A stretch of DNA of 64,000 nt from an uncultured Opitutia bacterium. Lineage in GTDB: Bacteria; Verrucomicrobiota; Verrucomicrobiia; Opitutales; CAJWYM01. Below are positions 2,801 to 51,937 of this stretch, in pieces. The stretch spans positions 15,509-79,508 of the forward strand of contig CAJWYM010000004.1 in the NCBI GenBank assembly GCA_913049555.1, in the 5' to 3' direction. The position numbers and the translations under genes were made by a program. Under the pieces are notes generated by a model. The model saw only the letters and a program-made list of their open reading frames with translations, ran no database searches and was not told the DNA's origin. Numbering within the stretch: the stretch's first letter is position 1; each line of letters starts with the position of its first letter.

Positions 2801-2801
2801 A

Positions 2802-3230: not shown

Positions 3231-3238
3231 TAATAATA

Positions 3239-3538: not shown

Positions 3539-3583
3539 AAAAGCAATTTTTGCTCCTGAGAAAAAGAAAAATAAGTAGAAAGT

Positions 3584-4177: not shown

Positions 4178-4308
4178 AAACCCAAAGATGGACTCGATCG
4201 TGCTTTTTTAAAGCAGTAAAATTGCTTCAAAAAAGATCCGCAGAGTTCCAATCAAATAAAATATTGTCTTCTATATCACAATCCTAATCCTCTTCCGAAA
4301 TATTGCCC

Positions 4309-6537: not shown

Positions 6538-6696
6538 GAAACTCTTTAGACCTGTATTCTTGATAGAACTTTGATTTTAATGGCTGCAATGAGTTCAAAA
6601 ATTTTCACGGATCCAAAAGCCTTCATTTATGAATTGAAACACTCATTATGCTCGGATGTCTTTTGCTTGAATCTCACTTTCTAGCATCCATTGATT

Positions 6697-14071: not shown

Positions 14072-14264
14072 CACAGTGAATACTAAAGATCTCTCCGACA
14101 AAATAGACAATTACAAATCGATAAAAAGCCTAGGAAAATGGATTTTGCAAGAGGTTGGCAAGTTAATTGCTTTTATATGATTTCTTGTAACATACAGGCA
14201 TATTTTACCAGACAGCTTTCCATTAAAAAAATCACTTAATTTTCAATAACGAACCCAAACGCAT

Positions 14265-15647
14265 ATGTCCTCAGGATTAATCGGCAGTATTTACAAAAAT
14301 GCGCAAGCACTCAACTACCATCAAAGAAATGTTGAGATTAATGGAAATAATTTAGCCAATGTAAACAATCCAGAATATGCTCGGCAAAGAACTCTGCTAA
14401 AGAACGGATACATGACCGGATCTCGGTATGGTTTAGAAACCAGTGCGATTGAATCCGATGGTTTGGAGCATTTGCGAGACAAGCTTCTAGACAACCAAAT
14501 CACCAAACAAATTTCCACTACGGAATCCCTAAAGGAACAAGCGGAGTTGGTAAACTTAATGACTGCCGTGATTGCCGAGGAAATCCGCAGAGCCGAAGAA
14601 CCCCAAAGCTTAGATGGTGCTCAAGAGGAACAAATCGACACTGGCACGATCTCCCGAGCAATCGACCGTTTTTTCAATTCTTGGCACGAACTTTCAGCAG
14701 ATCCAAACAACATAGCAGCCAAGCAGGTGGTTTACAGCGAAACCGAAGCTATGATCCAAACTTTCAGTGTTACTGGAGAAAGACTCACGAACCTCAAAAC
14801 AAACTTTGAAACATTGAGTGCGGATGCTAACGACAAGATCGATTCTCTACTCAATGAAATTGCTCAGTTAAACACACTGATTTCCAAAACTGAATTTATC
14901 AACCAAGGACAGGCGGTGACCTACAGAGATGACAGGCAGGCCGCTATAGAAGAACTGGCAACTTACATGGATGTCACCGTTTCAGAAGATCCTCTTGTCA
15001 ATGGTGCTGTTACAATCAAATCAGGTTCGACCGATTTTGAGTTGATCAATGCCGCCACTGGAAGAACTGGAGAGAAATTCGAAGATCAGGCTACTTCAGT
15101 TCTTTCCACTGGAGGGAAACTCCATGCCTATGCCCAAGTTACCAGTGCTACAGGTAGTCTGACCAATTTGATTACAAGCTTAACCAAATTGACCTCCACT
15201 ATAGTGACCGAGGTAAACACTGCCTACACTGGCTTTTTAGCTGGTACTACTATTGCCACCTTGGCCTTTGGGACTGGGATTAATAAAGCTTCTGACATAG
15301 CTGCATCTGCCAGCACATCGAGTTCAGGTGCAAATGATATTGCTTTGGCTGTCGCTGAAATTAAGGACAAAACGCACACAGGCTTAGACGAAATGAACAT
15401 GATTGACTACCTAAGTTCTAAAGTAGCTGAGTTTGGTTCACAAGGCAAGTTGATCAACGACAGCTTAGACCACCAGACAGATATCTTAGATTCCTTAAAA
15501 AACAATCGTCAATCAGTCAGTGGGGTCTCCATTGATGAAGAGGTTGCCAATATGATGGCCAACCAAAGAGCATTTCAGGCTTCTTCTAGAGTGATCACTA
15601 CCATAGACAGCTTACTGGATTTAGTAGTCAACGGCTTGATTCGTTAG
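14265..15647 (+). CDS. flgK: Flagellar hook-associated protein 1 (FlgK)
   Basis: The N-terminus (GLIGSIYKNAQALNYHQRNVEINGNNLANVNNPEYARQR) and C-terminus (SGVSIDEEVANMMANQRAFQASSRVITTIDSLLD) match the conserved FlgK/rod-hook termini. Confidence 0.88.
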   Translation: MSSGLIGSIYKNAQALNYHQRNVEINGNNLANVNNPEYARQRTLLKNGYMTGSRYGLETSAIESDGLEHLRDKLLDNQITKQISTTESLKEQAELVNLMTAVIAEEIRRAEEPQSLDGAQEEQIDTGTISRAIDRFFNSWHELSADPNNIAAKQVVYSETEAMIQTFSVTGERLTNLKTNFETLSADANDKIDSLLNEIAQLNTLISKTEFINQGQAVTYRDDRQAAIEELATYMDVTVSEDPLVNGAVTIKSGSTDFELINAATGRTGEKFEDQATSVLSTGGKLHAYAQVTSATGSLTNLITSLTKLTSTIVTEVNTAYTGFLAGTTIATLAFGTGINKASDIAASASTSSSGANDIALAVAEIKDKTHTGLDEMNMIDYLSSKVAEFGSQGKLINDSLDHQTDILDSLKNNRQSVSGVSIDEEVANMMANQRAFQASSRVITTIDSLLDLVVNGLIR

Positions 15648-19006: not shown

Positions 19007-19961
19007 ATCCTGAGAAGCCTTCAATGGTTTTGCCAGTAAGTGCATCTTGGATACCCGACTGCTTTACAAGAACTCCAATTTTGGTCAATTCTAGATCAAA
19101 AATTCGCCCCCATTTTTGATGAAATGCGATCCCATCTGCATCCTTTGAAAGAATAAACAAAAGCTCATAATCTTCCCCATCTGTAAGGGCATGTTCTAAT
19201 ACTGATTTCTTTGATTCCTGAGCCAATAAAAAACAATCCTCAGAAATTGGAAAGACTTCCAAGTTTATAGAAACCCCTATCTCCCTAGTTAAAAGGCTGT
19301 TTATATCTTTTGCAAAACCATCGGTAATATCTAGCATCGAACGAACTTCTTTTTGCTTTGAAAGCCATAGACCTTCCTCCAGCCTAGGCTTAAAATCGAG
19401 GTGCTTTGCGAGAATACTCCCCCCTAATTTTCCTGTAACATAGAGAGAGTCTCCAACAACTGCACCCTTTCTAAGAACTGGATTTTCTGCAAAACCAACC
19501 AGACTCATGTTGCCTATAAACTGCCGATCCTCTCCTCTGCAGAGGTCTCCTCCAACAATCTTGAGGTTTACATCACTCGCAGCTTTATAAACCCCCTCAA
19601 TGAAACGAATCATCCACTGCTTGCTTAACTGAGGGGATACAATTAAATTTAAAAGTGCAGTGCTCGGAACCCCTCCCATAGAAGCAACATCACTTAAATT
19701 GCGATTCACTAATTTTCTCCCAACTCTATAAGGATCGGAGTCCTCAAAAAAATGGCGACCCAAAAGAACCGAGTCGGTGGTCAAGACTGCTAAATTCTTA
19801 TTTCCCGAGAAATCAACAACTGCACAGTCATCACCAATACCCTCAGGATAACGTGGATTGACTTCTCTGAGAAACTCTTGGATCAAATCGATCATACCCA
19901 ATTCTCCCAAGAATCCGATCTGAGATTCAAAATCCTCAGACCACATATTTACTAAACCCAT
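18993..19961 (-). CDS. thiL: Thiamine-monophosphate kinase
   Basis: IGDDCAVV, NLSDVASMGG and DITDGFAKD motifs of the AIR-synthase-related fold. Confidence 0.88.
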   Translation of the reverse strand: MGLVNMWSEDFESQIGFLGELGMIDLIQEFLREVNPRYPEGIGDDCAVVDFSGNKNLAVLTTDSVLLGRHFFEDSDPYRVGRKLVNRNLSDVASMGGVPSTALLNLIVSPQLSKQWMIRFIEGVYKAASDVNLKIVGGDLCRGEDRQFIGNMSLVGFAENPVLRKGAVVGDSLYVTGKLGGSILAKHLDFKPRLEEGLWLSKQKEVRSMLDITDGFAKDINSLLTREIGVSINLEVFPISEDCFLLAQESKKSVLEHALTDGEDYELLFILSKDADGIAFHQKWGRIFDLELTKIGVLVKQSGIQDALTGKTIEGFSGYEHF

Positions 19962-20857
19962 AAATGGCTGGGATAATTTCCTTGATCCACCAAATCCAAA
20001 ATCTTAGCTTTGACTAATCCTACGTCTTCACTGTAAGTAACACCAAACCACTCGGCGTGAGTAGGAAGCACAGAAACAGAAATTTCCTTTTTTTGAATGC
20101 GATCTGTAATTACTGAGGGTAAATAAAACTCAGAGTCGAGTTCCTGACCAAAATCTTTTAGAAAGGATTCAAACGCGGACTCCAAAAAATCAAAAAATTC
20201 GGTCTCAAAGCCAAACAAATTCATAGACACAGTCTCTTTCCCTGACAAAAAGATGGGTTCATTTCCAGCGACACCTGTAATGGATCCTGACTGATCCACT
20301 ACTTCGTGGGTTTCGTTCAAAGAGACTAAATGACCCCCACTGGAAACATCACAGATCCCTCTAGAAACCGAACCGGAATCCGACAAAGTTTTCTCTAAAG
20401 TATAGCCAATCATCAAATAATCAAATTTTGTCAGAGACGACAAACCCAAAAAAGCTTTTTGAAAAGCATCTCTACCATAGAAATCATCTCCATTAATAAC
20501 AACAAAAGGTCCTTGAATACATTTCTTGGCCATTAAAACCGCTTGACCGGTACCCCAAGGTTTTGTTCTACCTGATGGAACGTTAAAACCATCAGGCAGA
20601 GCTTGAAGGTCTTGAAACACATAAATGACTCGGACTCTCTCAGCAATTCGATTGCCCAAAACTTGACGAAACTCATTTTCAATCTCTTTTCTGATAATAA
20701 AAACCACTTGGTCAAACCCTGCCACGATTGCGTCGTAAATAGAATAATCCAACAGGGTCTCTCCATGCTTTCCAAATCGAGCTAGTTGCTTCAATCCCCC
20801 AAATCGACTCCCCATTCCAGCTGCCATTACAACTAAACTCGCACCCTTATTGTCCAT
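19952..20857 (-). CDS. Sugar-phosphate nucleotidyltransferase family protein
   Basis: N-terminal VVMAAGMGSRFGGLKQL, plus KPWGTGQAV and INGDDFYG. Confidence 0.75.
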   Translation of the reverse strand: MDNKGASLVVMAAGMGSRFGGLKQLARFGKHGETLLDYSIYDAIVAGFDQVVFIIRKEIENEFRQVLGNRIAERVRVIYVFQDLQALPDGFNVPSGRTKPWGTGQAVLMAKKCIQGPFVVINGDDFYGRDAFQKAFLGLSSLTKFDYLMIGYTLEKTLSDSGSVSRGICDVSSGGHLVSLNETHEVVDQSGSITGVAGNEPIFLSGKETVSMNLFGFETEFFDFLESAFESFLKDFGQELDSEFYLPSVITDRIQKKEISVSVLPTHAEWFGVTYSEDVGLVKAKILDLVDQGNYPSHLWV

Positions 20858-20858
20858 A

Positions 20859-21398
20859 CTAAGCTTGATAGTTACAAATCTTTAGCATTGCAACAATAAC
20901 TACGCCTGTTATCGAGACATAAATCCAAATTGGATAGGTCCATCGGGCCAATTTTTTGTGAGCCGAAAACTTTTTTGAGGCTGCGAAAAATAGAGTCGTA
21001 AATATCATAGGGACCATGGCAATCGATAAAAGGATATGACTGATCAACACAAAGAAATAAATGGGTCGTATAAATCCCTCTCCCATAAATGGCGTATCCC
21101 CATGAAAATTGTGATACACAATATAACTCACTAAAAACAATCCAGAAGCGGTTGTGGCCCCTATCATGCAGATTGCATGCTTCTTTTTCTGTTCCGACTT
21201 AATGTAAAGGATTCCCAATACGATAAAGGAAGCAGCAATAGTATTTAAGGTAGAATTCAAATAAGGTAGGTATTCTACCCAACCAAAGGTGGTTTTAGTA
21301 GGTTCTTTGAAATAAATCAGCCAAAATAAGAAAGCAACCACAAGCGAACTGACAGCAAGGATGGCCGAAACTGCAGTTCTAGTTTGAATCACAATCAT
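20859..21398 (-). CDS. DUF420-family membrane protein (the family containing CtaM)
   Basis: 179 aa with four to five TM helices and conserved His residues (YHNFHG, ISHILL). 1-nt TAATG overlap with the upstream gene. The family call is from memory. Confidence 0.6.
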   Translation of the reverse strand: MIVIQTRTAVSAILAVSSLVVAFLFWLIYFKEPTKTTFGWVEYLPYLNSTLNTIAASFIVLGILYIKSEQKKKHAICMIGATTASGLFLVSYIVYHNFHGDTPFMGEGFIRPIYFFVLISHILLSIAMVPMIFTTLFFAASKKFSAHKKLARWTYPIWIYVSITGVVIVAMLKICNYQA

Positions 21399-22306
21399 TA
21401 ACCTTCAACATTTAGATTGAAGGGGATGAACAACTCTTCCCCGTTGAGCTTTACTTGGGCCCAAAGCCTGTAGTTGCCTGGGTCGAAAACATTGAAAGAA
21501 AAAGACAGATCAGGATTTGTAATGTCTTGATTGAGACTGGAGTTGAGTGGGTGTAGGTGGGCAAATCCAGATCTTTTCTCATCAAAGGCAACTAAATGAG
21601 CATAAGCACCCATAACAGGCTCAAATTTTGCATAGTATCCTTTGGATTTGAGCTTCAGCCTAAAAACTTCAGGTTGACGAACCTTCAACGTCTCATGATC
21701 AGAGGTCAATTCAAACACATGCCCTGCTACTTCACTGTTCCAGTCATAGGAATCGAAGTCTGGTTCTTCCTCTGAACCCGGTATATCTACCTTGGCGAGC
21801 AATAAGATTTTTCTGCCCGTCTCAGCAACTACAAAATCAAAAAAACCACAATAAGTACCGCTTCGTTGAGGAGTCATCTTAAACCGAAACAACCCTGGGG
21901 AACCTTCCTCTGTAGGGTGGACATGTTGGTAATCTTTGAGACTGGGATCTACCATCATGAGATGAATTTTTTCCGTATGGGTAACTCCTATATCATCTGC
22001 GATCAATAAGCCCCCAGAAATGGTTTCCAATGAAAATTCAAATTCGCACTCTTTACCTACAACTAAATCGGTTAAAGGCTTTAATTCCACTTGTATGGGA
22101 AAACGAATTTCCTCTAAATTGTAAAAATTGGTCTCATCTGGACCACAATACTCAACAACCCCGTTTTCTGTCACCTCCTCTTTGTAATGCAAAAAATTAC
22201 AGGGCTCCACAGGCATGTTTCGAATCACAAAGTACAGAGCAATACAGCCAAGGGTCAAGAGGACTACTTGTTTGTTCATTTTGCGTGTGGCGTCTCTATA
22301 ATTCAT
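21398..22306 (-). CDS. Exported protein with two tandem beta-rich repeats, each carrying an HxHP motif (putative metal-binding)
   Basis: N-terminal TM/signal (NKQVVLLTLGCIALYFVI). Repeat 1 is EKIHLMMVDPSLKDYQHVHP and repeat 2 is GAYAHLVAFDEKRSGFAHLHP. Confidence 0.6.
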   Translation of the reverse strand: MNYRDATRKMNKQVVLLTLGCIALYFVIRNMPVEPCNFLHYKEEVTENGVVEYCGPDETNFYNLEEIRFPIQVELKPLTDLVVGKECEFEFSLETISGGLLIADDIGVTHTEKIHLMMVDPSLKDYQHVHPTEEGSPGLFRFKMTPQRSGTYCGFFDFVVAETGRKILLLAKVDIPGSEEEPDFDSYDWNSEVAGHVFELTSDHETLKVRQPEVFRLKLKSKGYYAKFEPVMGAYAHLVAFDEKRSGFAHLHPLNSSLNQDITNPDLSFSFNVFDPGNYRLWAQVKLNGEELFIPFNLNVEG

Positions 22307-43221: not shown

Positions 43222-44574
43222 TTAATTCCGGTCGATTTCCCCTAAGATTTGCCACTGCGTATCATCAAAAAACCACAAGGCAGTTTCCAGTTCGACAATC
43301 TCTTTTTCAAGAACCTGACTAGTCATCCACCATTTCTCAAAGAGTTGCATTCGCTCTTGAAAAACACTCATGGTAGTGGGAACGCTTAAGCTATTTAAAA
43401 TTTGCCATCTCACTTGTTGCTTCTTCAATTGAGTACGAACTGTATTCAATTGTTCATTCACTTGACTCAACTGAAGCAACCAAGAAACTATTTTCTTTTC
43501 TAAAACCTTGTCTTGAACTTCTCTTTCTCGAATAAATTCTTGTTTTTGCCGCTTGATCTTTCCCCTTGTGTCTAATTGCCATATCAAATCCGCTCCTACC
43601 CTTATATTGTCAGTATTCCAAAGACTTTTGGACTGTCCTGAAAATCTAAATAAAGAGGGGGTTGAAACCGATAAATTTAAATCCGGCCAATATTGTAAAT
43701 CAATTTGGCGAGATCTTAGACGTGCACCTTCAAGTTCAATCGCCATCAGTTTAATCTGATCTTGTGCAATGTGCTCAATCAATTCTAAATTGAGCCCGCC
43801 CTGATCCACATAAGGCAATTTAATAAGTTGAGTGGGGCGTATACGCCAAATTTTACTAGAATCACTCAAGTGATCATTCAACCGCAATTGGAGTTTGCGA
43901 CCTTTTTCCTCAAAGACTTTTTCTGAACTGTTATCTTTGTAGAATAAGATGGCAGCGAGGTCTTCTACGGGCAAACGTTTTTTAAAACTGTCTTTCCACA
44001 GTGAAAATTCAATGCTTTTCTCGAGCATCTCTTGTTCACGAAAAATTTTATACAATTCAATGACCGCTTTTCGGATTTTGAGTGTTTTGGAGGTATTGGC
44101 TCGAACGAGACTCAATCGGCTCGTATACAATCTTGAGGGAATCTGTTGTAGATAAGCAAAATTAAAAAAACTATCAATTCCATAGGTCCAACCATTTGCA
44201 AATACAGAAGCAGATCCACTTATGAACTCGGAATAACCTCCTTTTAAGGTAAGTTTAGGAATAAGATCTCGGTATACAAATTTAAGATCATTTTCTGCTC
44301 TGAATAAATCCATTTCAGAAGTAGTCAGATCAATGTTGCTTTCTAAAAGGATTTCTAAAGCTTCTGTAAAAGAAACAAATTCTTCATCACTGTTGTCTAA
44401 CTTATCTAAATTTGATCTCCACAGCTCTCTTAGATTTACCTCATTCGTCTCTAAATTTTCTTCAACACTTTTACAAGAAACTGATAAAAACATTGTATAC
44501 AAACAAAAACAAAGGCTGCCAAAAATCGACAGCCTTTGTTTCTTGAAAAAAATATCTAGAAATTTACTCAACAA
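43222..44574 (-). CDS. TolC-like outer-membrane factor family protein (possible lipoprotein)
   Basis: 450 aa with the signal ending FLSVSC. Two-fold helical/strand repeat pattern with a typical LTEALEILLESNIDL...AENDL opening. Its start overlaps the secretin stop by 11 nt. Confidence 0.55.
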   Translation of the reverse strand: MLSKFLDIFFKKQRLSIFGSLCFCLYTMFLSVSCKSVEENLETNEVNLRELWRSNLDKLDNSDEEFVSFTEALEILLESNIDLTTSEMDLFRAENDLKFVYRDLIPKLTLKGGYSEFISGSASVFANGWTYGIDSFFNFAYLQQIPSRLYTSRLSLVRANTSKTLKIRKAVIELYKIFREQEMLEKSIEFSLWKDSFKKRLPVEDLAAILFYKDNSSEKVFEEKGRKLQLRLNDHLSDSSKIWRIRPTQLIKLPYVDQGGLNLELIEHIAQDQIKLMAIELEGARLRSRQIDLQYWPDLNLSVSTPSLFRFSGQSKSLWNTDNIRVGADLIWQLDTRGKIKRQKQEFIREREVQDKVLEKKIVSWLLQLSQVNEQLNTVRTQLKKQQVRWQILNSLSVPTTMSVFQERMQLFEKWWMTSQVLEKEIVELETALWFFDDTQWQILGEIDRN

Positions 44575-47332
44575 CTGCTCGACGAGTTTCGGTTCCAGTC
44601 GGGGATACGATCACCGGATTTTGGAACAAAGAGTTAGGTTTTAAATTGCCAATACGCTGTTTTGATGGAGAACCCCCCGGAGAGATTAAGTTCGCAGTAA
44701 CAAATATGAGTAAGTTTCTCTTAACACTGGTCTCTCCTCGGTTCTGAAAAAATCTACCCACAATCGGCAAGTCTCCAATAACTGGAACAGAATCGTTGAT
44801 TGTTTTGATCTCATTACGTGTCAGTCCACCGATTACAACCGTCGCACCATCAAATACACTCACTTGGGTTTCTACTATTCTTGTTGAGAAAATCGGCTGG
44901 AAATAACCGGATGGAGCCGTAACAGTAGTGCTCCCAGAAATTGCAATATTAGGAGAACCATATTGGACAAAACCCTCAAACTCAGTGACTATAGGAGACA
45001 AACGAAGAGTGATGATATCCCCTTGCTCAACAGTGGGAGTTACGATCAACTCTACACCCACTAACCTTGATTGGAAATCACTGGGTAAGGGTGAAGTGAT
45101 TCCTACGGATGCAGGCGAAGTTGTATTACCACCGCCACCGCCGCCGCCACCACCACCAGTAGTAACTTCTCCAGCTTCATACTCTGTGGGGTATAAAAAT
45201 TCTTGACCCACTTGAATTCTGCCTTCCATACCAGCCAACATTGTAACCTTCGGGGCTGACATTAGGTCAGAAGTCGATTTCCTAGAAAGGGCATTGATTA
45301 CTAAATTAAACTCGGTATTTCTAAGAATACCTCTGAAAGAAATCAAATCCGATGCCCCAGTTGCCAGATCTGCAGTCGATGGGAAAGGTGGAGGTAAATT
45401 AGGAACCTCAGTTGTGGATTGAGCACCCGAAGAGGAGCTTTGGATAATTCTTGTAAAGCTATCACTGTCAGCAGCTGTAAAAGTCTCGGCTAATTTTCGA
45501 TTTTGAGTATCGAACGATCCTGAAGTTCGAGTCTCATCTGTATATACATTGTTCCAGTCAAAGCCTAATTCATCCAGATCGTTTTGATTGACCTCTAAAA
45601 ACTTCGCTTCAACTTCAACTTGTTTGGTTTCATTGTATCTTCTGAGAATCGTCCGGACTCTTTCAAGATTCTTTGTAGATTGAGTAATAATCAACTCCGT
45701 TCCCTCATAGGCAAGAGTAGATCCAGGAATGCTGAAACTAACACCCGCTCTTTCAAAAAAGCTTTTGATCGCTGATTCATCCCCACTGCCTGAGTCAGAA
45801 GAAACGGAATCACTGGGATCTGCAAATGGATCCACTGCAGAGTCAGAACTGCTCCCCCCTCCACTACCTCCGGTTATACGGACTACGGCTGCTTGACTGA
45901 TAGGGAAAAAATCTGTTTCAAGAAATTCTTGGTTGTCCCCCATGCTTGGCTTTACAACAATGGCATCCTCTGTAACTTCAAAAGAATAGCCTACTTGTTG
46001 AGTGACGAATTGAAGCACTCGCTCTACCGTTAGATTCCTCAGATTGATATTTACTTCAGGATCACTGTTAGATGGATCGAGGAGAACAACATTCACTCCC
46101 TTTTCACCCTCGGCGGCAGTAAAATCATATTCCATGGACAATTCACTAATAGTCTCAACTACATTTGAAAGAGGCATACCTATGAACTGAGCTCTCGGAA
46201 CTTTGATTTTTTTTATTTTTGATTGCAGCGCACCGCTACTTTTTACTTCAGGCGTGGGGGGTTCTTCAAAAAGAAAAACTCGTGGTCTTTGCCATGAGGA
46301 ACTCACTTCTTCTAATAATTGAGATCTGGTTTTTAGACGAGTAGCATAATTTTGAGAGTCTAACCTTTCAGCAATTTTTTTAAGGAAAAGATTGGATTCA
46401 ATGTGCCCAGGTTGAATGGTATCGATCTCTTGAAATGCTCGGCTCGCTCCTTCAAAATTTCCAGCTAAGTAAAGACTTCTACCTTTGAGTAAAAGGTCCT
46501 TAACCTTTTGTTCCTGTTTTGGAAAACTAGGATCCATTCTATCAGTATTTTGGCGAAAAGGATTGTACGCATCATGGTCAATCAACTTCTGAAACTTCTG
46601 AGATTTACGGTTTTCCCCAAACTCTTGATTGTAGGTTTTAAGTTCTTCTTGAGCGTCTTTATAGCGAAGGTCTTCATAGGAACTCACAGAAGCTTCAAAT
46701 TGCTCATCTCCCATTTCTTGCTGTAAATCCGATTCTACAGAGCGTATTTGTCTGTCAGAACCAAAATACTTTTTGTAATCCATCACTTGTGAGACTGCGT
46801 CCTCATATTCATTGGCCTCAAAAGTGTCCTTAGCCTGTGTGAAAAAAACTTTTTTTCTCTTATCAGCTAAATCTTCAGTTAAAAATTTTGTCGCAATACT
46901 GTTGTAGGGTTGAATGTTCGCTTCAGCTGTTTGTAGCTCCTTCAAGGCCAAAGCGTAATTTTTTTCTTTCAATGCTTGTCTGGCAAAGCTCATCCTTTTT
47001 TTAGCATCCACAATTGCGTCTTTTTGCTTCTCTTCAACATTGCTAAGTAGAGTATTGTACTTATTTGCCTCTGATTTATCGACAGCATCTGCACCTTGAG
47101 ATTCTAACTCCGCCTCCAAAGCTTCCATTTGATTTGTGATTTGACTGTCTGCGGGAGAGGCGTTGGCAATTTGTTCTAACAACGCTCGAGCCTCTTTGAC
47201 ATTCCCATTTTCTCTTGCTTCAATCGCTCTAGTTAAAAGTTTCATTCTCTCGGCCTCACTCATGGAGGACTGACCATTTAAAGTGCCCAAAAAGAGTAAA
47301 ATAGAGAAACAAAATGTTCCAAGATGTTTCAT
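44564..47332 (-). CDS. pilQ: Secretin (PilQ/GspD family) with a long TPR-like N-terminal extension
   Basis: The C-terminal secretin core is GVELIVTPTV...VVIGGL...VPVIGDLPIVGRFF...KRNLLIFVTANLI. The signal peptide follows the ATG at 47332 (MKHLGTFCFSILLFLGTLNG). The first ~330 aa are helical repeats. Confidence 0.88.
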   Translation of the reverse strand: MKHLGTFCFSILLFLGTLNGQSSMSEAERMKLLTRAIEARENGNVKEARALLEQIANASPADSQITNQMEALEAELESQGADAVDKSEANKYNTLLSNVEEKQKDAIVDAKKRMSFARQALKEKNYALALKELQTAEANIQPYNSIATKFLTEDLADKRKKVFFTQAKDTFEANEYEDAVSQVMDYKKYFGSDRQIRSVESDLQQEMGDEQFEASVSSYEDLRYKDAQEELKTYNQEFGENRKSQKFQKLIDHDAYNPFRQNTDRMDPSFPKQEQKVKDLLLKGRSLYLAGNFEGASRAFQEIDTIQPGHIESNLFLKKIAERLDSQNYATRLKTRSQLLEEVSSSWQRPRVFLFEEPPTPEVKSSGALQSKIKKIKVPRAQFIGMPLSNVVETISELSMEYDFTAAEGEKGVNVVLLDPSNSDPEVNINLRNLTVERVLQFVTQQVGYSFEVTEDAIVVKPSMGDNQEFLETDFFPISQAAVVRITGGSGGGSSSDSAVDPFADPSDSVSSDSGSGDESAIKSFFERAGVSFSIPGSTLAYEGTELIITQSTKNLERVRTILRRYNETKQVEVEAKFLEVNQNDLDELGFDWNNVYTDETRTSGSFDTQNRKLAETFTAADSDSFTRIIQSSSSGAQSTTEVPNLPPPFPSTADLATGASDLISFRGILRNTEFNLVINALSRKSTSDLMSAPKVTMLAGMEGRIQVGQEFLYPTEYEAGEVTTGGGGGGGGGGNTTSPASVGITSPLPSDFQSRLVGVELIVTPTVEQGDIITLRLSPIVTEFEGFVQYGSPNIAISGSTTVTAPSGYFQPIFSTRIVETQVSVFDGATVVIGGLTRNEIKTINDSVPVIGDLPIVGRFFQNRGETSVKRNLLIFVTANLISPGGSPSKQRIGNLKPNSLFQNPVIVSPTGTETRRAVVE
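45128..45157 (-). repeat. (GGY)10 glycine-codon tract inside the secretin core
   Basis: The plus strand reads ACC ACC GCC ACC GCC GCC GCC ACC ACC ACC, encoding TT-GGGGGGGGGG-NTT. It is almost pure G/C in an AT-rich gene. Confidence 0.9.
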
Positions 47333-47428
47333 GTTAATATTCCAATTTGTGTGTAGGTGTTTCATTATTTTAGTCGCCGATAAAAATTATTTATAATAGA
47401 AGAATGAGAAGAGGAGAGTTTCAAGCAT

Positions 47429-48400
47429 TTAATTCAGTAGAAAGGGATCTTGAGTGGAATCCTCAGGACTGTCCTCAGATACTTCTTCTAGGATGTTTCC
47501 CTCTAAATCGTAAAGAACCTCTTTTTCCAAAAGCATTTCAATACTCGTTCCGTCCTCTTTATTTGTTTTGGAAATCAGAACTTTTTTATCATCAAAGTAG
47601 ACTTCGGTTAGCTTGTATGTAAAATTTTCTTCAAAGTTAAAAACTTTGAAAGTCTTAAAGGGAGATGAACTGGAATCAAAACGATTCAATTGAATAATCT
47701 CATTTACAGCTGGATCGAGTTGAGAAGTGATCGTAATGTTTAAAGTTCCAGTGTACACTTTCTCCTCTCCGATTTGATTGGTGAGGGTAAACTCTTTACC
47801 AGATTCCAAATCGCGAACTCTAAGCCTGGCAACTCGAACCAACCGCAACCCTTTTTCATTTATGATCTCCTCTTTTTTTTCAGTAAAAGAAAGGAACTTT
47901 ATTTTTGCTTCTCGATTCGTTTCACCTATTCTACCAGATACTACATCGGTAGAATCTTCCGTATTAATAATGGAAATCTTTGCCTTCTCCACCGTTCCAG
48001 AAAAGCTGCTATACTGATACCTAAATTTCTCCCTGCTAATATCGGTAAATACAACACCAAAGGGAGGGATTACTTTCGGTGGTGGAGGAAGGACAAGAAC
48101 TCCAGGTTCCTTAGCAATCAATTCCCCATCATCATCAATATAAATTTTGGGAGGTGTAAACACAGAATATTTCCAAAATTCGTCGGGAATGTCCCTTTGC
48201 ATTTTTGGCTCCTTCCACTCCTCAGGATCAGCAATATTTTGATCTACAACCACATTTTCATAATCGTTCATCTGAGCGAAACTAGGCAAATCCAAATCAA
48301 GAGCTTTCAAACCATTGTATTGGGTTAGGGTCAAAAAACCTGTTATGAGCAGAGTTATCAGAACTGCTAATAAAATAAGTTTGTCGTATAATTTTTCCAT
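47429..48400 (-). CDS. Bitopic hypothetical protein of the pilus-like cluster (position of a PilP analogue)
   Basis: N-terminal TM (LILLAVLITLLITGFLTL), a Pro-rich segment (VLVLPPPPKVIPPFG), a beta-rich body and an acidic tail. Confidence 0.7.
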   Translation of the reverse strand: MEKLYDKLILLAVLITLLITGFLTLTQYNGLKALDLDLPSFAQMNDYENVVVDQNIADPEEWKEPKMQRDIPDEFWKYSVFTPPKIYIDDDGELIAKEPGVLVLPPPPKVIPPFGVVFTDISREKFRYQYSSFSGTVEKAKISIINTEDSTDVVSGRIGETNREAKIKFLSFTEKKEEIINEKGLRLVRVARLRVRDLESGKEFTLTNQIGEEKVYTGTLNITITSQLDPAVNEIIQLNRFDSSSSPFKTFKVFNFEENFTYKLTEVYFDDKKVLISKTNKEDGTSIEMLLEKEVLYDLEGNILEEVSEDSPEDSTQDPFLLN

Positions 48401-48412
48401 AACAAATTCTAA

Positions 48413-49471
48413 TTACTCAAACTCACTTTGTTGATCAAGAGTTTCATTGCTACCCAACATTTCTTCAATATCGTAAATATACTCTATATACTCAACCACG
48501 ACTGTAAAAGAAGAAGCATCTTCTTTAATCAGAGGAGGTCGAGTGGGCATGGTGACTTCTTTAACATCCTCTTCGTTTTCTTTTTCCTCTTGTGGGCTTA
48601 CCCCAAATAAAGCGGCGAAAGCACTGCTGGGTTCGGTTGTATCTACTTGTCTTCGAACTTCATTTGACCTGAAAGCTGATTCTTCAATTTCTTTTTTAGA
48701 GGAACTCTTGACTCGGATGTCTTGAACAATCAAAGGATAATAACTGTCATCGGAAACTCGGTTTAAAAACTTCCTAAGAGAGGAAGTGTGACCATAAAAT
48801 GACAATTCAAAGGCCAATGTGTCCACGACTCCTTCTTTTCTTACCGAAAGTAATGGGTTGAGTTTGTACCTATCTTCGGCAGTTGAAGTTCTCTCCTGAC
48901 CATCTTGATCTTGATATTCTAAATATTCTCTTTTGATATTTGTAATTCCATCCGGACCAGATTCAATCAAAGCTTTCGATAAATGTTCTAACAACTGCCT
49001 TTGCTTGTCGATAATGGAAACATAGGGTTTCATCTCCTCAGTAAAGGTGGTTCCTTCAAAATACTGGGCAAAACCAAAGCCAAATTTTTCAGGTATCTTG
49101 ATCTTAAATTGTTCCTTATTTTCATCAGATCTGCAAAGATTCGTCAAAATTTTAATATGGTCTCGAACCGATCCAAGAAATCGATTGTCATCGGTTTCAG
49201 TTAAAATTGGGTTTCGAGCCTCTACGAGTCGAGTCTTTCTATCATAGACTTGAGCTAGATGAGTTATGTTTTTTTCAGAGTCTAATTCTACTTGCTCGGT
49301 AAGAGAGGGTTGACTTTCGAGAAGTTCTCCAAGGGCTCTTTGATATCGGTTGATATTTTTTGTAATTTTATTTTCTTCAGAATGGGCAAGAAAAAGCATC
49401 ACAATCCCCACTAAAAATAGAGCTATTAAAACTCCAATTGATACAAAAAATGTGATATTTTTTTTAACCAT
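48413..49471 (-). CDS. Amuc_1100-like / PilO-like bitopic protein
   Basis: N-terminal TM (ITFFVSIGVLIALFLVGIVMLFL). Blocks FGFGFAQY, LLEHLSKALIESG, LAFELSFYGHTSSLRKFLNRV...PLIVQDIRVKS and FTVVVEYIEYIY parallel the Akkermansia Amuc_1100 sequence as I recall it. ATG at 49471. Confidence 0.6.
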   Translation of the reverse strand: MVKKNITFFVSIGVLIALFLVGIVMLFLAHSEENKITKNINRYQRALGELLESQPSLTEQVELDSEKNITHLAQVYDRKTRLVEARNPILTETDDNRFLGSVRDHIKILTNLCRSDENKEQFKIKIPEKFGFGFAQYFEGTTFTEEMKPYVSIIDKQRQLLEHLSKALIESGPDGITNIKREYLEYQDQDGQERTSTAEDRYKLNPLLSVRKEGVVDTLAFELSFYGHTSSLRKFLNRVSDDSYYPLIVQDIRVKSSSKKEIEESAFRSNEVRRQVDTTEPSSAFAALFGVSPQEEKENEEDVKEVTMPTRPPLIKEDASSFTVVVEYIEYIYDIEEMLGSNETLDQQSEFE

Positions 49472-49521
49472 AACACTCAAACTCTAAAAACAATTAAAAT
49501 ACTCAATAATATTCAATCAAA

Positions 49522-51207
49522 CTAAAGGGGTTTGTCTTGATTCACTTCAAAGGTAATTTCAAAAGGCAAAACTTTTAAACCCTTATTTAAATTTTCAAAT
49601 CCTATTTTAGAACTTTTTTCTTTAACGATAAAATCAGAGGCAATCAAACCGTTTTTAAATTCGATAATGCGATCCCCAAGTATTTTTTGATCCACCGCTT
49701 GAATCACTCCATCTTCATTTTTTTCACTTCGAACCAAGAGTCTGCCTTTAAGATCCAAATAGGAAACCGCTGGATTTCTTGAGTTTCCCTGAGAACGATT
49801 GACCTTCATATCATCCAACCAAACATCTTTGATATCAAAAAGGATCTCCTGAATATTGCTTAAAAATAGAATCCAATTGTATTTAGAATCTACTATCGAA
49901 CCGATCTCATTGATCGCATCTTTATACTTTTCCGCAATAGTTATATTGGTTTCTATCTTGTTGCGGGAGTCTTCAAGGGGTGGAATTTCGTTTTTAATCA
50001 TCCTTGTAAACTTCCTTTTTTGAGAAATTTCTTGATTTTTCAAGAAATAGGAACCAAAAGGCAAGATCGCCAATAAAAGGGCCGAAACAATTAAGATGGG
50101 TTTCTTTTTGTTAAACTCCTGAGTAGCTTGAAATTCGTTGGGCAGTAAATTCACTCCAACGGGACTTTCAACATAATCCCGAGCTACCGATCCTACCACC
50201 TCATTTAAGTTGAATTGATCAATAGACATTGACTCTTCATCAATCCCTGATCCTAATGTGAGTGAGGTTAAAGTCTGGAAGTAATCAATTTCAACCCTTT
50301 GTTTTTCACCAATAAATTCAGACAAACCGCCAACTAAAGATCCTTTGCCAGTTAAGAATATGTGAGTCGGAGACTTGCCCTTTTTTTGTCTTTTATAAGT
50401 AACGATCGATCTCGTTACTTCTTGGTTCAGTCGTTTAAAAAACGTTTCAGAGGCTTGTTGCATGACATGAACAGCTGGATCACTGTCATCGACCTCGAGT
50501 TCCCCAGAAAAATACTGGATTTTGAGATCATCCGCATCCTCAAAGCTCATACCCAAGTTGTCTGAAATATTTTGGGTTAAGGTATTGCCACCAACATTGA
50601 TCGTCCGAACTAAAAATCCGCTTGGATTTATAAAAAGTAAATTCGTAGATCTTGAACCAATGTTAATAATTAAATTTTCAGTATCCGCAGTTTCGTAGCC
50701 AGAAAAATGAAATGCGTTCACGTCTAAAATTGAAGACGCACCCATTGAGACAGGAAATAAACCCAGCGTATTTACCCGAGAACAAAAATCTTTGGCAATG
50801 TCTTTTTTGATGGCAATCAATAAGGCTTCATTGTCAATATCATCTTCGCTGACGATGTGACTGTCCCAAACGACATCTGTTAAAGGATAGGGGATATTTT
50901 GTTGGGCTTCAAACTCAATAATCTGTTGTTGTTTGTGTTCCTCAACCCGTGGAACACGAATAGTTTTTGTCAGCAATAAGAATCCCGGCAAAATAAAGTG
51001 AGTTTTTCCTGAAATTTTGTTGTTTTTAGTCAGGCTTTCTAAGCTTTCAATAACCGAGTCCAACCATTGGTAGTCGTCTGAATGTTCATAAGATAAAGAT
51101 TCAGAAAAAGTTTTATCCAAAACTAAGCGATCCTCTCCAACAGAAAATGTGCTTATGGATACATGGCTAGCACCACAATTAACAACAATCTTTTGTTCTG
51201 CTTTCAT
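49522..51207 (-). CDS. pilM: PilM-like actin-fold ATPase fused to a TM and a PilN-like periplasmic domain
   Basis: IVVNCGASHVSIS, LIINIGSRSTNLLF and INVGGNTLTQNISDNLGMSFEDADDLK are PilM/FtsA-like. A TM at about residue 370 (ILIVSALLLAILPFGSYFL) is followed by a ~170-aa domain. Confidence 0.8.
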   Translation of the reverse strand: MKAEQKIVVNCGASHVSISTFSVGEDRLVLDKTFSESLSYEHSDDYQWLDSVIESLESLTKNNKISGKTHFILPGFLLLTKTIRVPRVEEHKQQQIIEFEAQQNIPYPLTDVVWDSHIVSEDDIDNEALLIAIKKDIAKDFCSRVNTLGLFPVSMGASSILDVNAFHFSGYETADTENLIINIGSRSTNLLFINPSGFLVRTINVGGNTLTQNISDNLGMSFEDADDLKIQYFSGELEVDDSDPAVHVMQQASETFFKRLNQEVTRSIVTYKRQKKGKSPTHIFLTGKGSLVGGLSEFIGEKQRVEIDYFQTLTSLTLGSGIDEESMSIDQFNLNEVVGSVARDYVESPVGVNLLPNEFQATQEFNKKKPILIVSALLLAILPFGSYFLKNQEISQKRKFTRMIKNEIPPLEDSRNKIETNITIAEKYKDAINEIGSIVDSKYNWILFLSNIQEILFDIKDVWLDDMKVNRSQGNSRNPAVSYLDLKGRLLVRSEKNEDGVIQAVDQKILGDRIIEFKNGLIASDFIVKEKSSKIGFENLNKGLKVLPFEITFEVNQDKPL

Positions 51208-51280
51208 GAAATACTTTTATAGAGGCATTGAGGGTTAGAGAAAAGGTATGAATCGAATGATGGACTATTAGAATTTTGGA

Positions 51281-51877
51281 TTATTCCGCATCTTTTCGCT
51301 TAAATTCTGGCTGATTCTCAAGTTTTGCAGTTACAAAATTTGGTGCCAAATAAGACGGAACTAATAAGTCTTCGGTTTCAGAAACCCCTGCATTCGCTTT
51401 GGCAATAAATGAAGTAGCGTTTTTTTGTAATTTTTTGGAAAGATGATCTTTGTGGGGCTCCACTTTTTGACCATCCACCTCTATTTCTACCATCCAAGCG
51501 TAAGGATCTTTTGAAAGTTTGTCTCTTTCGGAAATAGAGCCAGGTAAAGCAAAATAGATATTTTTAGGAGCCGACGTTTTCATAGTAATGATTTCAACTT
51601 CAGATCGGTAAAAGTCATAATGATTATCAGGCAAATTCTCAGATTTTGGTTGATAAGCAAGGGTCAAAATAACCTTAACATTGTCAAGGTAGTCTTCATT
51701 TCGAGCTTTTTCTCCCTTAGGATTCTTTAAAGGGTCAATTTTTACTTCAGCAACAATCCAATTGTCCGTAGAGTAAGCAAATTTGACGCCTTTCACAGAC
51801 ACTAAATCCTCTTTCGCATGGAGAAAAGTAGATAACAAAACAATGAGTATGACAGTAGGTAAATGAGGGAAATTCAT
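51281..51877 (-). CDS. Secreted hypothetical protein, first gene of the pilus-like cluster
   Basis: Signal peptide (PTVILIVLLSTFLHAKE) and a beta-rich 198-aa protein with no recognised motif. Confidence 0.65.
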   Translation of the reverse strand: MNFPHLPTVILIVLLSTFLHAKEDLVSVKGVKFAYSTDNWIVAEVKIDPLKNPKGEKARNEDYLDNVKVILTLAYQPKSENLPDNHYDFYRSEVEIITMKTSAPKNIYFALPGSISERDKLSKDPYAWMVEIEVDGQKVEPHKDHLSKKLQKNATSFIAKANAGVSETEDLLVPSYLAPNFVTAKLENQPEFKRKDAE

Positions 51878-51937
51878 CTAATTTTTTTAGCTATTAATCC
51901 AGATAAAAGCAACAAATTTTTTCAAACTAACCTAAAG

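What the first reader, a model, noticed from the sequence alone, without database searches (positions are those of the whole stretch)
43222..51877. 8.6 kb pilus-like envelope cluster resembling the Akkermansia Amuc_1098-1102 locus, with no pilin, ATPase or platform genes in reach
Seen: six co-directional minus-strand genes have small gaps (12-73 nt) or an overlap between them. In order they are a secreted 198-aa protein, a PilM-like ATPase-fold protein fused to a TM plus periplasmic domain, a bitopic Amuc_1100-like protein, a bitopic Pro-rich protein, a secretin and a TolC-like protein. Established (from memory): in Akkermansia muciniphila the immunomodulatory outer-membrane protein Amuc_1100 lies in a five-gene cluster with a secretin and a PilM/FtsA-like protein that is thought to be type IV pilus related, and its real function is unknown. 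Inference: this is the same system in another verrucomicrobial lineage. It resembles a PilMNOPQ alignment/secretin subcomplex, yet no PilB/PilT ATPase, PilC platform, prepilin peptidase or pilin gene lies within 8 kb on either side. What passes through the secretin is therefore open: a pilus, DNA or a protein substrate.
Basis: partly seen in the sequence, partly recalled or inferred. Interest (0 to 1): 0.72.

Follow-up and report, generated by a model that had tools for sequence, protein, structure and literature searches.

The report
Akkermansia-type pilus-like secretin operon in Opitutales
This is the marine-Opitutales version of the already described Akkermansia Amuc_1102-1098 (MUL2) pilus-like secretin operon. 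It is a correct but fairly ordinary find, and its one unusual feature is a TolC-like gene tacked on behind the operon's terminator.

Summary
The six minus-strand ORFs exist exactly as described. Five of them (51877 to 44564) form the same operon as Akkermansia muciniphila Amuc_1102-1101-1100-1099-1098 ("MUL2"), in the same order.

- The PilM-like, Amuc_1100-like and secretin genes hit NCBI's Amuc_1101, Amuc_1100 and Amuc_1098 family models (E 2e-85, 2e-19, 4e-117).
- The 198-aa protein folds like Amuc_1102 (PDB 7DSZ).
- Only the Pro-rich protein is matched by position and architecture alone.

The organism is a marine Opitutales. At least 39 other Opitutales species carry the five genes in the same order. 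A conserved intrinsic terminator follows the secretin in Opitutales and in Akkermansia.

The sixth gene is a divergent TolC/OprM-type lipoprotein. It lies behind that terminator, occurs only in this sub-lineage, and is not part of the conserved system.

No pilin, ATPase or platform gene exists anywhere in the 64 kb. That is normal for pilMNOPQ-type operons. Two Coraliomargaritaceae species have a prepilin and a PilB/GspE ATPase 1.6 kb downstream of the secretin.

The function is no longer "unknown": the Akkermansia genes are needed for mucin uptake.

Verdict: new member of a known kind, moderate interest.

The parts
51281..51877 (-). Gene 1: secreted 198-aa beta-sandwich protein, homolog of Amuc_1102 (MUL2A). 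It has a Sec-type signal peptide and no prepilin (class III) signal.
   Evidence: ORF. A family profile against Amuc_1102 gave hhalign 82-84%, E about 1e-5. The AF2 model (pLDDT 69.7, pTM 0.71) finds 7DSZ chains A-C as the only PDB hits with E <= 1e-3 (E 2.4e-4, TM 0.45-0.48). It holds the same first position as in Akkermansia.
49522..51207 (-). Gene 2: PilM-like actin-fold domain (about residues 4-340), a TM helix (about 370-392) and a 170-aa periplasmic domain. This is the Amuc_1101 (MUL2B) homolog with a GspL-like architecture.
   Evidence: Pfam PilM_2 6.5e-22. NCBIfam Amuc_1101_fam 2.2e-85, 288 bits, below the equivalog cut-off of 650. hhalign against Amuc_1101 gave 100%, E 5e-43. The C-terminal domain has no PDB or Pfam match.
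48413..49480 (-). Gene 3: bitopic Amuc_1100-family protein, in the PilO/GspM position. The real start is probably the ATG three codons in (352 aa), as called on the Tara scaffold.
   Evidence: NCBIfam Amuc_1100_fam 1.7e-19 over residues 5-316. Precomputed Pfam PF28028 Amuc_1100 hit on the identical protein. hhalign against the Amuc_1100 family gave 92%, E 6e-7, 230 columns.
47429..48400 (-). Gene 4: bitopic 323-aa protein with an N-terminal TM helix, a Pro-rich linker and an all-beta C-terminal part. It is the positional equivalent of Amuc_1099 (PilP/GspC position).
   Evidence: Conserved at this position in 64 of 70 Opitutales loci that reach it. hhalign against Amuc_1099 gave only 13-20%, E about 1e-3. 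No Pfam, NCBIfam or PDB hit. The AF2 model is unusable (pLDDT 41).
44564..47365 (-). Gene 5: secretin with a long TPR-like N-terminal region and an STN/N0 domain. This is the Amuc_1098 homolog.
   Evidence: Pfam Secretin 4.4e-31 and STN 1e-4. NCBIfam Amuc_1098_fam 3.5e-117 (392 bits, cut-off 750). GspD 6e-37, MshL 9e-36 and PilQ 6e-30 are all below their cut-offs.
44505..44543 (-). Intrinsic-terminator-like hairpin (18-bp stem followed by a U-run) starting 20 nt after the secretin stop codon. It marks the end of the conserved five-gene operon and lies inside the signal-peptide-coding part of the next ORF.
   Evidence: dG -25.9 kcal/mol, z -4.4, 0 of 200 shuffles as good. An equivalent hairpin plus U-run follows the secretin in L083 and L084, in 28 of 41 other Opitutales loci against 12 of 210 control segments, and in Akkermansia L085.
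43222..44574 (-). Lineage-specific sixth gene: a divergent outer-membrane-factor (TolC/OprM/OprN family) lipoprotein. Its TTG start overlaps the secretin stop codon. It is not part of the conserved system.
   Evidence: Pfam OEP 1.5e-5, 25.4 bits against a cut-off of 22. The family profile hits OprN 3e-5, OprM 1.6e-3 and TolC 0.015 in the PDB. 34 of 50 family members hit OEP. Homologs sit directly after the secretin only in L083 (64% identity) and L084 (34%). It is absent from the 80 other loci. The frame and Cys-lipobox are conserved through the hairpin in L083.

Best explanation
**What it is.** The five genes from 51877 to 44564 are the Opitutales ortholog of the Akkermansia Amuc_1102-1098 (MUL2) operon. 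They form one transcription unit that ends at an intrinsic terminator after the secretin.

**What it encodes.** The operon encodes the envelope-spanning, non-motor half of a type-IV-filament-class machine:
- a cytoplasmic PilM-like actin-fold domain fused through one TM helix to a periplasmic domain (the GspL / PilM+PilN architecture)
- a bitopic Amuc_1100-family partner (PilO/GspM position)
- a bitopic Pro-rich beta protein that would link to the secretin (PilP/GspC position)
- a TPR-bearing outer-membrane secretin
- a Sec-exported beta-sandwich protein of the Amuc_1102 family

**Shown here.** Homology of four of the five proteins, the gene order, the operon boundary and the wide conservation.

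**Inferred.**
- The complex works with a PilB/GspE-type ATPase, a platform protein and prepilins encoded elsewhere in the genome, as pilMNOPQ operons normally do.
- By analogy with Akkermansia (mucin import) and marine Akkermansiaceae (fucoidan uptake), it serves capture or uptake of complex glycans at the cell surface.

**The sixth gene.** The TolC-like gene is a lineage-specific addition, expressed at most by read-through of the terminator. It most likely serves an ABC-type exporter, as its gene neighbours in L084 suggest.
For: **Family models.** Amuc_1101_fam 2.2e-85, Amuc_1100_fam 1.7e-19 and Amuc_1098_fam 3.5e-117. PilM_2 and Secretin in Pfam.

**Direct comparison with a real Akkermansia locus.** L085 carries Amuc_1100 at 100% identity to PDB 6LAD/6KNY.
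- Its gene order and sizes are 242-612-317-337-907 aa, against 198-561-355-323-933 aa here.
- hhalign gave 100% for Amuc_1101, 92% for Amuc_1100 and 84% for Amuc_1102.
- The model of the 198-aa protein finds 7DSZ first in the PDB.

**Conservation.**
- 309 relatives of the PilM-fusion gene occur in GTDB species genomes. The best 80 are all Opitutales.
- 39 of those 80 loci have all five genes detectable with the window proteins, and all 39 share the same order and strand.

**Operon boundary.** A terminator follows the secretin in the window, L083, L084, 28 of 41 other loci and Akkermansia.

**Motor elsewhere.**
- A prepilin (N_methyl 2.8e-7) and a T2SSE/MshEN ATPase (3e-125) lie 1.6 kb downstream of the secretin in L038. 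L045 gave the same motif and tblastn hits.
- This shows that the order has such motors and that they can be linked to this module.

**Function by analogy.**
- PMC13174399 reports that MUL2 is syntenic in aquatic Akkermansiaceae and that these bacteria take up fucoidan.
- PMC12418764 and bioRxiv 10.1101/2024.03.27.586211 report that MUL genes, including those encoding pili, are required for intracellular mucin accumulation.
Against: - All three Amuc family hits fall well below NCBI's equivalog cut-offs (288 vs 650, 70 vs 180, 392 vs 750 bits). These are distant homologs, not proven functional equivalents.
- The Pro-rich protein is not significantly similar to Amuc_1099.
- No sequence or fold evidence ties the periplasmic parts to PilN, PilO, PilP or GspL/M/C.
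- I could not examine this organism's genome beyond 64 kb, so the existence of a motor, platform and prepilins is inferred.
- The ATPase and prepilin linkage is seen in only 2 of about 80 loci.
- The 198-aa protein lacks the N-terminal hydrophobic helix that type IV pilins need to polymerise, so it is not an orthodox pilin.
- An Amuc_1102-like gene is missing at this position in about 17 of 78 Opitutales loci.
- No glycan-degrading genes flank the operon in this window.
Confidence: 0.6

Rival explanations
1. Type II secretion-like reading. The module is the GspL-GspM-GspC-GspD part of a T2SS-like protein exporter. It would put glycan-degrading or adhesive proteins on or outside the cell. The Akkermansia uptake phenotype would then be an indirect effect of lost secretion.
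For: - The PilM-TM-periplasmic fusion is the GspL architecture.
- The Pro-rich protein is bitopic like GspC, not a lipoprotein like PilP (sequence).
- The secretin scores slightly higher with GspD (6e-37) and MshL (9e-36) than with PilQ (6e-30).
- Giant secreted proteins (1300-1590 aa; PD40 and Big_7 domains; a metzincin-like HExxH motif) follow the secretin on the same strand in many Opitutales loci.
- The ATPase linked to the module in L038 is T2SSE with an MshEN domain.
Against: - No GspL, GspM or GspC Pfam or NCBIfam hit. All GspD, MshL and PilQ scores are below their cut-offs.
- No gspE-K genes lie next to the module, whereas T2SS genes are usually in one operon (established knowledge).
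- Pili-like structures and surface-exposed Amuc_1100 are reported for Akkermansia (PMC5332112).
Confidence: 0.2
2. Motor-less import pore. The five proteins form a self-sufficient envelope complex. The secretin would act as a large outer-membrane gate for inward passage of polysaccharide or glycoprotein fragments. The Amuc_1102-like protein would be a periplasmic or surface glycan-handling subunit. No type IV filament or ATPase would be involved.
For: - The module stands alone in varied housekeeping contexts in Akkermansia and in nearly all Opitutales loci.
- The Amuc_1102-like protein is Sec-exported and cannot polymerise like a pilin (sequence; motif scan).
- The Akkermansia genes are needed for import of mucin into intracellular compartments. 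Selfish uptake of large glycans is described in marine Verrucomicrobiota.
Against: - A cytoplasmic PilM-like domain has no evident role without a cytoplasmic partner. In known systems PilM and GspL dock the ATPase and platform (established knowledge).
- Separate loci for alignment and motor genes are normal.
- Prepilin plus ATPase lie next to the module in two species.
- No secretin is known to work without a filament or phage partner (established knowledge).
Confidence: 0.12
3. Six-gene hybrid machine. In this sub-lineage the TolC-like protein is a true sixth subunit, or a dedicated partner channel, of the secretin system and not an unrelated neighbour.
For: - It is adjacent to the secretin in three genomes (100%, 64% and 34% identity) whose flanks otherwise differ.
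- Its start codon overlaps the secretin stop in the window and in L083.
- There is no room for its own promoter after the terminator in L084, so it must be transcribed from the operon.
Against: - It is absent from 80 other Opitutales loci and from Akkermansia.
- It is separated from the secretin by the conserved operon terminator.
- In L084 it heads a run of lipoprotein, ABC ATPase and permease genes, typical of a tripartite ABC exporter.
- It belongs to a small family (141 clusters) of ordinary OMF length and domain content.
Confidence: 0.08

Closest known systems
Akkermansia muciniphila Amuc_1102-Amuc_1098 cluster (MUL2 locus; Ottman 2017 PMC5332112; Wilkie 2026 PMC13174399)
   Same: - Five genes in the same order and of similar sizes.
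- The PilM-TM-periplasmic fusion, Amuc_1100-family protein, TPR-secretin and Amuc_1102-fold protein are homologous.
- A terminator follows the secretin.
- No motor or pilin genes lie nearby.
   Different: - Only distant homology: all NCBIfam scores are below the equivalog cut-offs, and identity is about 17-26%.
- The Amuc_1099 equivalence is not shown by sequence.
- The host is a free-living marine Opitutales, not a gut Akkermansiaceae.
- The flanking genes differ (leuA and lnt here, against lgt/peptidase and coaE/rho).
- A TolC-like gene is appended here.
Type IVa pilus alignment subcomplex and secretin, PilMNOPQ (Pseudomonas, Myxococcus, Thermus)
   Same: - A PilM actin-fold protein (Pfam PilM_2 above its cut-off), two to three bitopic or periplasmic partners, then a secretin, in that gene order.
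- The operon is typically separate from pilA, pilBCD and pilT.
   Different: - PilM is fused to its membrane partner.
- There are no PilN, PilO or PilP family hits.
- The partner before the secretin is bitopic, not a lipoprotein.
- The secretin has a TPR N-terminus in place of AMIN domains.
- An extra Sec-exported beta-sandwich gene comes first.
Type II secretion GspL-GspM-GspC-GspD
   Same: - GspL is likewise a PilM-like domain, a TM helix and a periplasmic domain.
- GspM and GspC are bitopic.
- The secretin scores best with GspD among the classical models.
   Different: - No GspL, GspM or GspC sequence match.
- The module is not embedded in a gspC-O operon.
- No pseudopilin genes are adjacent.
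Outer membrane factors TolC / OprM / OprN (for the sixth gene)
   Same: - An OEP repeat, about 450 aa, and a Cys-lipobox signal like OprM and NodT lipoproteins.
- The family profile aligns collinearly with OprN.
   Different: - Very divergent: only one OEP repeat is detected in this member.
- It sits behind a secretin gene, with no adaptor or transporter gene next to it in this genome.

Membership tests
Amuc_1098-1102 / MUL2 cluster | Five co-directional genes in the order Amuc_1102-like, PilM-like fusion, Amuc_1100-like, bitopic protein, secretin | tested here: met
   Window ORFs compared with Akkermansia locus L085. The same order is seen in 39 of 39 Opitutales loci with all five genes detected.
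Amuc_1098-1102 / MUL2 cluster | PilM-like protein belongs to NCBIfam Amuc_1101_fam | tested here: inconclusive
   E 2.2e-85, 287.7 bits over residues 4-471, but the equivalog cut-off is 650. hhalign against Amuc_1101 gave 100%, E 5e-43. It is a homolog; equivalence is not certified.
Amuc_1098-1102 / MUL2 cluster | Amuc_1100-family protein | tested here: met
   NCBIfam Amuc_1100_fam 1.7e-19 (70 bits, below the equivalog cut-off of 180). Pfam PF28028 Amuc_1100 hit on record for the identical protein. hhalign 92%, E 6e-7.
Amuc_1098-1102 / MUL2 cluster | Amuc_1098-family secretin | tested here: met
   Amuc_1098_fam 3.5e-117 over residues 167-902, by far the best secretin model, although below the equivalog cut-off (392 vs 750 bits).
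Amuc_1098-1102 / MUL2 cluster | Amuc_1102 (MUL2A) fold in the first gene product | tested here: met
   Foldseek against the PDB: 7DSZ chains A/B/C are the only hits with E <= 1e-3 (2.4e-4, TM 0.45-0.48). The model has moderate confidence (pLDDT 69.7). hhalign 84%, E 7.5e-6.
Amuc_1098-1102 / MUL2 cluster | Amuc_1099 homolog | tested here: inconclusive
   hhalign 13-20%, E about 1e-3 over about 95 C-terminal columns. Position, size and the N-terminal TM anchor are the same. The structure model is unusable.
Amuc_1098-1102 / MUL2 cluster | Required for uptake or binding of complex glycans | not testable with these tools
   Reported for Akkermansia only in papers read here.
Type IVa pilus PilMNOPQ | PilM actin-like protein | tested here: met
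   Pfam PilM_2 78.4 bits against a cut-off of 27. TIGR01175 pilM gave 86 bits, below its cut-off of 133.
Type IVa pilus PilMNOPQ | Separate PilN, PilO and PilP family proteins | tested here: not met
   No PilN, PilO or PilP Pfam or NCBIfam hit at E <= 0.1 for any of the three candidates. Profiles find no PilN/O/P structures in the PDB. PilM is fused to its membrane partner.
Type IVa pilus PilMNOPQ | PilQ-type secretin | tested here: not met
   TIGR02515 PilQ gave 104.6 bits against a cut-off of 284. No AMIN domain hit. Only the generic Secretin domain is present.
Type IVa pilus PilMNOPQ | Pilin, PilB/PilT ATPase, PilC platform and PilD peptidase in the genome | not testable with these tools
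   None in the 64-kb window. The rest of the genome is not available. A prepilin and a T2SSE ATPase lie next to the module in L038 and L045.
Type II secretion system | GspD, GspL, GspM and GspC family membership | tested here: not met
   TIGR02517 GspD gave 127 bits against a cut-off of 351. No GspL, GspM or GspC hits.
Type IV pilin (for the 198-aa protein) | Class III signal peptide and hydrophobic N-terminal helix (G-F/M-T-L-I/L-E) | tested here: not met
   The sequence has a Sec-type signal (MNFPHLPTVILIVLLSTFLHA|KE). No N_methyl hit. The six-frame motif scan was negative.
Outer membrane factor (TolC/OprM) family (for the 450-aa protein) | OEP repeats, about 450 aa, outer-membrane lipoprotein signal | tested here: met
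   Pfam OEP 25.4 bits against a cut-off of 22, one repeat only. The family profile hits OprN 3.2e-5, OprM 1.6e-3 and TolC 0.015. 34 of 50 relatives hit OEP. Cys34 after a hydrophobic stretch is conserved in L083 and L084.

The most novel reading that the evidence does not exclude
The conserved five-gene module may be a motor-independent, secretin-based import gate for large glycans, found across Verrucomicrobiota from Akkermansia to Opitutales. The Sec-exported Amuc_1102-like protein would take the place of a pilin. In this sub-lineage the gate would have recruited a TolC-like channel whose expression is set by read-through of the operon terminator. That would be a secretin used for uptake instead of export, and a first secretin-OMF pairing.
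Probability: 0.1. Interest if true: 0.8.

Novelty: new member of a known kind. Interest (0 to 1): 0.35.

Why it matters
The Amuc_1100 cluster is studied mainly for its effect on human hosts. This locus shows that the same five-gene operon, terminator included, is a standard envelope feature of marine Opitutales: 309 relatives of the PilM-fusion gene were found in GTDB species genomes. That supports the view that the system is an old verrucomicrobial device for handling complex glycans, not a gut adaptation. It also offers culturable marine relatives (Coraliomargarita, Cerasicoccus, Thalassobacterium) in which the mechanism could be tested. The two species with a prepilin and an ATPase next to the module name concrete candidates for the missing motor. 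The practical gain is modest, because the system, its wider conservation and its likely role are already published for neighbouring orders.

Tried and rejected
**Searches and models that gave nothing**
- PDB sequence searches with the 355-aa and 198-aa proteins alone found nothing.
- The Opitutales Amuc_1100-like profile did not find the Amuc_1100 crystal chains by hmmsearch. Homology had to be shown with NCBIfam and two-sided hhalign.
- The profile of the Pro-rich family found no solved structure. Its AF2 model (11-sequence alignment) had pLDDT 41, and its Foldseek hits were meaningless.
- The profile of the periplasmic domain of the PilM fusion found no PilN, PilO or GspL in the PDB or Pfam.
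- The word-indexed protein search with the 198-aa family alignment returned only 4 proteins. That structure model therefore rests on a 5-sequence alignment.
- Rfam and tRNA scans of the window found nothing.

**Leads that turned out to be nothing**
- A 171-nt difference in the first gene between the window and the Tara scaffold looked like a deletion. It is a run of N in the scaffold.
- I tested whether the window's ABC ATPase and permease at 12.2-14.1 kb are the partners seen after the TolC-like gene in L084. They share only generic ATPase similarity (34%), and the permeases do not match.

**Resources not available**
- Davey 2023, Hughes 2025 and Mou 2020 are not held in the paper library. 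What I say about them comes from papers that cite them.
Full report
**Observation.** The gaps are 73, 41, 12 and 63 nt, followed by an 11-nt overlap. The sequences show a Sec signal on the first protein and a TM helix near residue 370-392 of the second. The third and fourth have N-terminal anchors, and the fourth has a proline run.

**Family assignment.** Pfam finds PilM_2 (6.5e-22) in the 561-aa protein. It finds Secretin (4.4e-31) plus STN and TPR in the 933-aa protein, and OEP (1.5e-5, above the cut-off) in the 450-aa protein. NCBIfam holds models built around the Akkermansia genes, and they are the best hits: Amuc_1101_fam 2.2e-85, Amuc_1100_fam 1.7e-19 and Amuc_1098_fam 3.5e-117. All three are well below NCBI's equivalog cut-offs, so these are distant homologs. 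The identical Amuc_1100-like protein on a public contig also carries a precomputed Pfam PF28028 'Amuc_1100' hit.

**Direct comparison with Akkermansia.**
- I recalled the Amuc_1100 sequence from memory and checked it. Residues 31-317 are identical to PDB 6LAD/6KNY.
- With it I fetched real Akkermansia contigs.
- Locus L085 has, in transcription order, Amuc_1102 (242 aa), Amuc_1101 (612 aa), Amuc_1100 (317 aa), Amuc_1099 (337 aa) and Amuc_1098 (907 aa), followed by coaE and rho. This is the same order and nearly the same sizes as here.
- Profile-profile comparison of Opitutales families with the Akkermansia families gave 100% (E 5e-43) for the PilM fusion, 92% (E 6e-7) for Amuc_1100, 84% (E 7.5e-6) for Amuc_1102, and only 13-20% for Amuc_1099.
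- An AlphaFold model of the 198-aa protein (pLDDT 69.7, pTM 0.71) finds the three chains of 7DSZ (Amuc_1102) as the only PDB hits with E <= 1e-3.
- Four of the five proteins are therefore shown to be homologous. The Pro-rich one matches by position and architecture only.

**Organism and distribution.**
- The PilM-fusion protein is identical to one on a Tara Oceans scaffold.
- Its named relatives, at about 40% identity, are Coraliomargarita, Ruficoccus and Puniceicoccaceae.
- A scan of one genome per GTDB species found 309 relatives. The best 80 are all Opitutales.
- In 39 of these 80 loci all five genes are detectable with the window's proteins, and in all 39 they share the same order and strand. 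The first gene is missing from its position in about 17 of 78 loci.
- The neighbours vary and are housekeeping genes: a LysM/TPR protein, an aminotransferase, a RecF-like protein, NUDIX and a 5'-3' exonuclease. In many loci a giant secreted protein follows the secretin.

**Operon boundary.**
- An 18-bp hairpin followed by a U-run starts 20 nt after the secretin stop codon (44543-44505; dG -25.9 kcal/mol, z -4.4).
- Equivalent hairpins follow the secretin in the two closest relatives (L083, L084) and in 28 of 41 other Opitutales loci, against 12 of 210 control segments. One also follows it in Akkermansia.
- The conserved unit is therefore five genes ending at the secretin.

**The sixth gene.**
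- The 450-aa protein is a divergent TolC/OprM-type outer membrane factor. Its family profile hits OprN (3e-5), OprM and TolC in the PDB, and 34 of 50 relatives hit Pfam OEP.
- It has homologs directly after the secretin only in L083 (64% identity) and L084 (34%). None occurs in the 80 other loci or in Akkermansia.
- In the window and in L083 its TTG start overlaps the secretin stop, and the hairpin lies in the part encoding its lipoprotein signal peptide. In L084 the hairpin is intergenic and leaves no room for a promoter. The gene can therefore only be expressed by read-through.
- In L084 it is followed by a lipoprotein, an ABC ATPase and a permease, which is the layout of a tripartite ABC exporter. 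These partners are not in the window.
- I read it as a lineage-specific neighbour, not a subunit of the conserved system.

**Missing motor genes.**
- Pfam scans of every ORF of 70 aa or more in the window, plus a six-frame motif scan, find no T2SSE, T2SSF, prepilin peptidase or N_methyl pilin in 64 kb.
- The same is true around the Akkermansia cluster.
- Across 2.38 Mb of related loci there are two exceptions. In two Coraliomargaritaceae (L038, L045) a prepilin and a PilB/GspE-type ATPase lie about 1.6 kb downstream of the secretin. Pfam confirmed N_methyl (2.8e-7) and T2SSE (3e-125) with MshEN for the L038 pair.
- From established knowledge, pilMNOPQ operons of Pseudomonas, Neisseria and Thermus also lie apart from the pilin, ATPase and platform genes. 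The absence is therefore expected and not anomalous.
- Whether this genome has a motor could not be tested.

**Mechanism.**
- The architecture is a PilM-like domain fused to a membrane-spanning periplasmic part (as in GspL), two bitopic partners and a secretin. This is the non-motor half of a type-IV-filament-class machine, and it fits T2SS about as well as T4P.
- No sequence or fold evidence links the periplasmic parts to PilN/O/P or GspL/M/C. That step is inference.
- The Amuc_1102-like protein is a Sec-exported beta-sandwich without a pilin N-terminal helix. It is not an orthodox pilin.
- For function I rely on papers. Proteins of the Akkermansia cluster are abundant in the envelope and Amuc_1100 is surface-exposed (PMC5332112). 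MUL genes, including those encoding pili, are needed for intracellular mucin accumulation. The MUL2 locus is syntenic in aquatic Akkermansiaceae, which take up fucoidan (PMC13174399).
- The most likely role here is capture or uptake of complex marine glycans, working with a motor encoded elsewhere (confidence about 0.6). The rivals are a T2SS-like exporter (0.2), a motor-less import gate (0.12) and a true six-gene hybrid with the TolC-like protein (0.08).

**Novelty.**
- The system, its pilus-like nature and its conservation outside Akkermansia are published.
- The 2026 paper tested Verrucomicrobiales, Chthoniobacterales and Methylacidiphilales, but not Opitutales.
- No paper in the searchable library mentions Amuc_1100 together with Opitutales taxa.
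- This is a new member of a known kind. The small additions are the conserved terminator, the appended TolC-like gene and the two loci with a linked prepilin and ATPase.

Noticed in passing
L038:17932-20529 and L045: about 19285-21400: In two Coraliomargaritaceae MAGs a prepilin and a PilB/GspE-type ATPase lie about 1.6 kb downstream of the secretin on the same strand. Pfam confirmed N_methyl 2.8e-7 and T2SSE 3e-125 with MshEN for the L038 pair. These are candidates for the module's missing motor.
   Followed up: partly
L008:16366-21141, L013:16464-20915, L030:16445-20827 and others (L019, L020, L025, L037, L043, L061): Many Opitutales loci carry a giant ORF (about 1300-1590 aa) directly after the secretin on the same strand. 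One has PD40 and Big_7 domains and one has a metzincin-like HEVGHTLGLLHDG motif. They could be cargo or surface partners.
   Followed up: partly
L084:16701-20985: In the 52%-identity relative, the TolC-like gene is followed by a 406-aa lipoprotein, a 224-aa ABC ATPase and a 380-aa permease. The genes overlap or are tightly spaced, in the layout of a tripartite ABC exporter. The lipoprotein and the permease have no Pfam hit.
   Followed up: partly
window 14265-15647 (+): A FlgK-like flagellar hook-associated protein gene (FlgK_D1 1.7e-25, Flg_bbr_C), so this Opitutales lineage probably has a flagellum. A sigma-70-family gene (301 aa) lies at 9702-10607.
   Followed up: no
window 11-8486: A cobalamin-related gene set (CobN-like chelatase, MotA/ExbB-like protein, DUF2149, CobO adenosyltransferase, CobS, CobT/DBI_PRT). 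No cobalamin riboswitch was detected by Rfam at gathering threshold.
   Followed up: no
window 12241-14110 (-): An ABC ATPase (222 aa) with an adjacent 407-aa multi-TM protein that has no Pfam hit. It is not the partner set seen next to the TolC-like gene in L084.
   Followed up: partly
window 51878-51937: Only 60 nt separate leuA from the first gene of the operon on the same strand. No terminator-like or promoter-like site was detected there. leuA is also upstream in L083 but not in L084, so the 5' end of the transcript is unresolved.
   Followed up: partly
L032, L033, L035, L036, L040, L044, L049, L051, L056, L060, L063, L078 (upstream of the PilM-fusion gene): In about 17 of 78 Opitutales loci no Amuc_1102-like ORF lies between the NUDIX or GcvH-like gene and the PilM-fusion gene. 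The four-gene core is therefore more conserved than the 'pilin-like' first gene.
   Followed up: partly
L001:8480-8580: The Tara scaffold has a run of N inside the first gene. This explains why public gene calls show a 70-aa fragment there and a truncated secretin. It is not a biological difference.
   Followed up: yes
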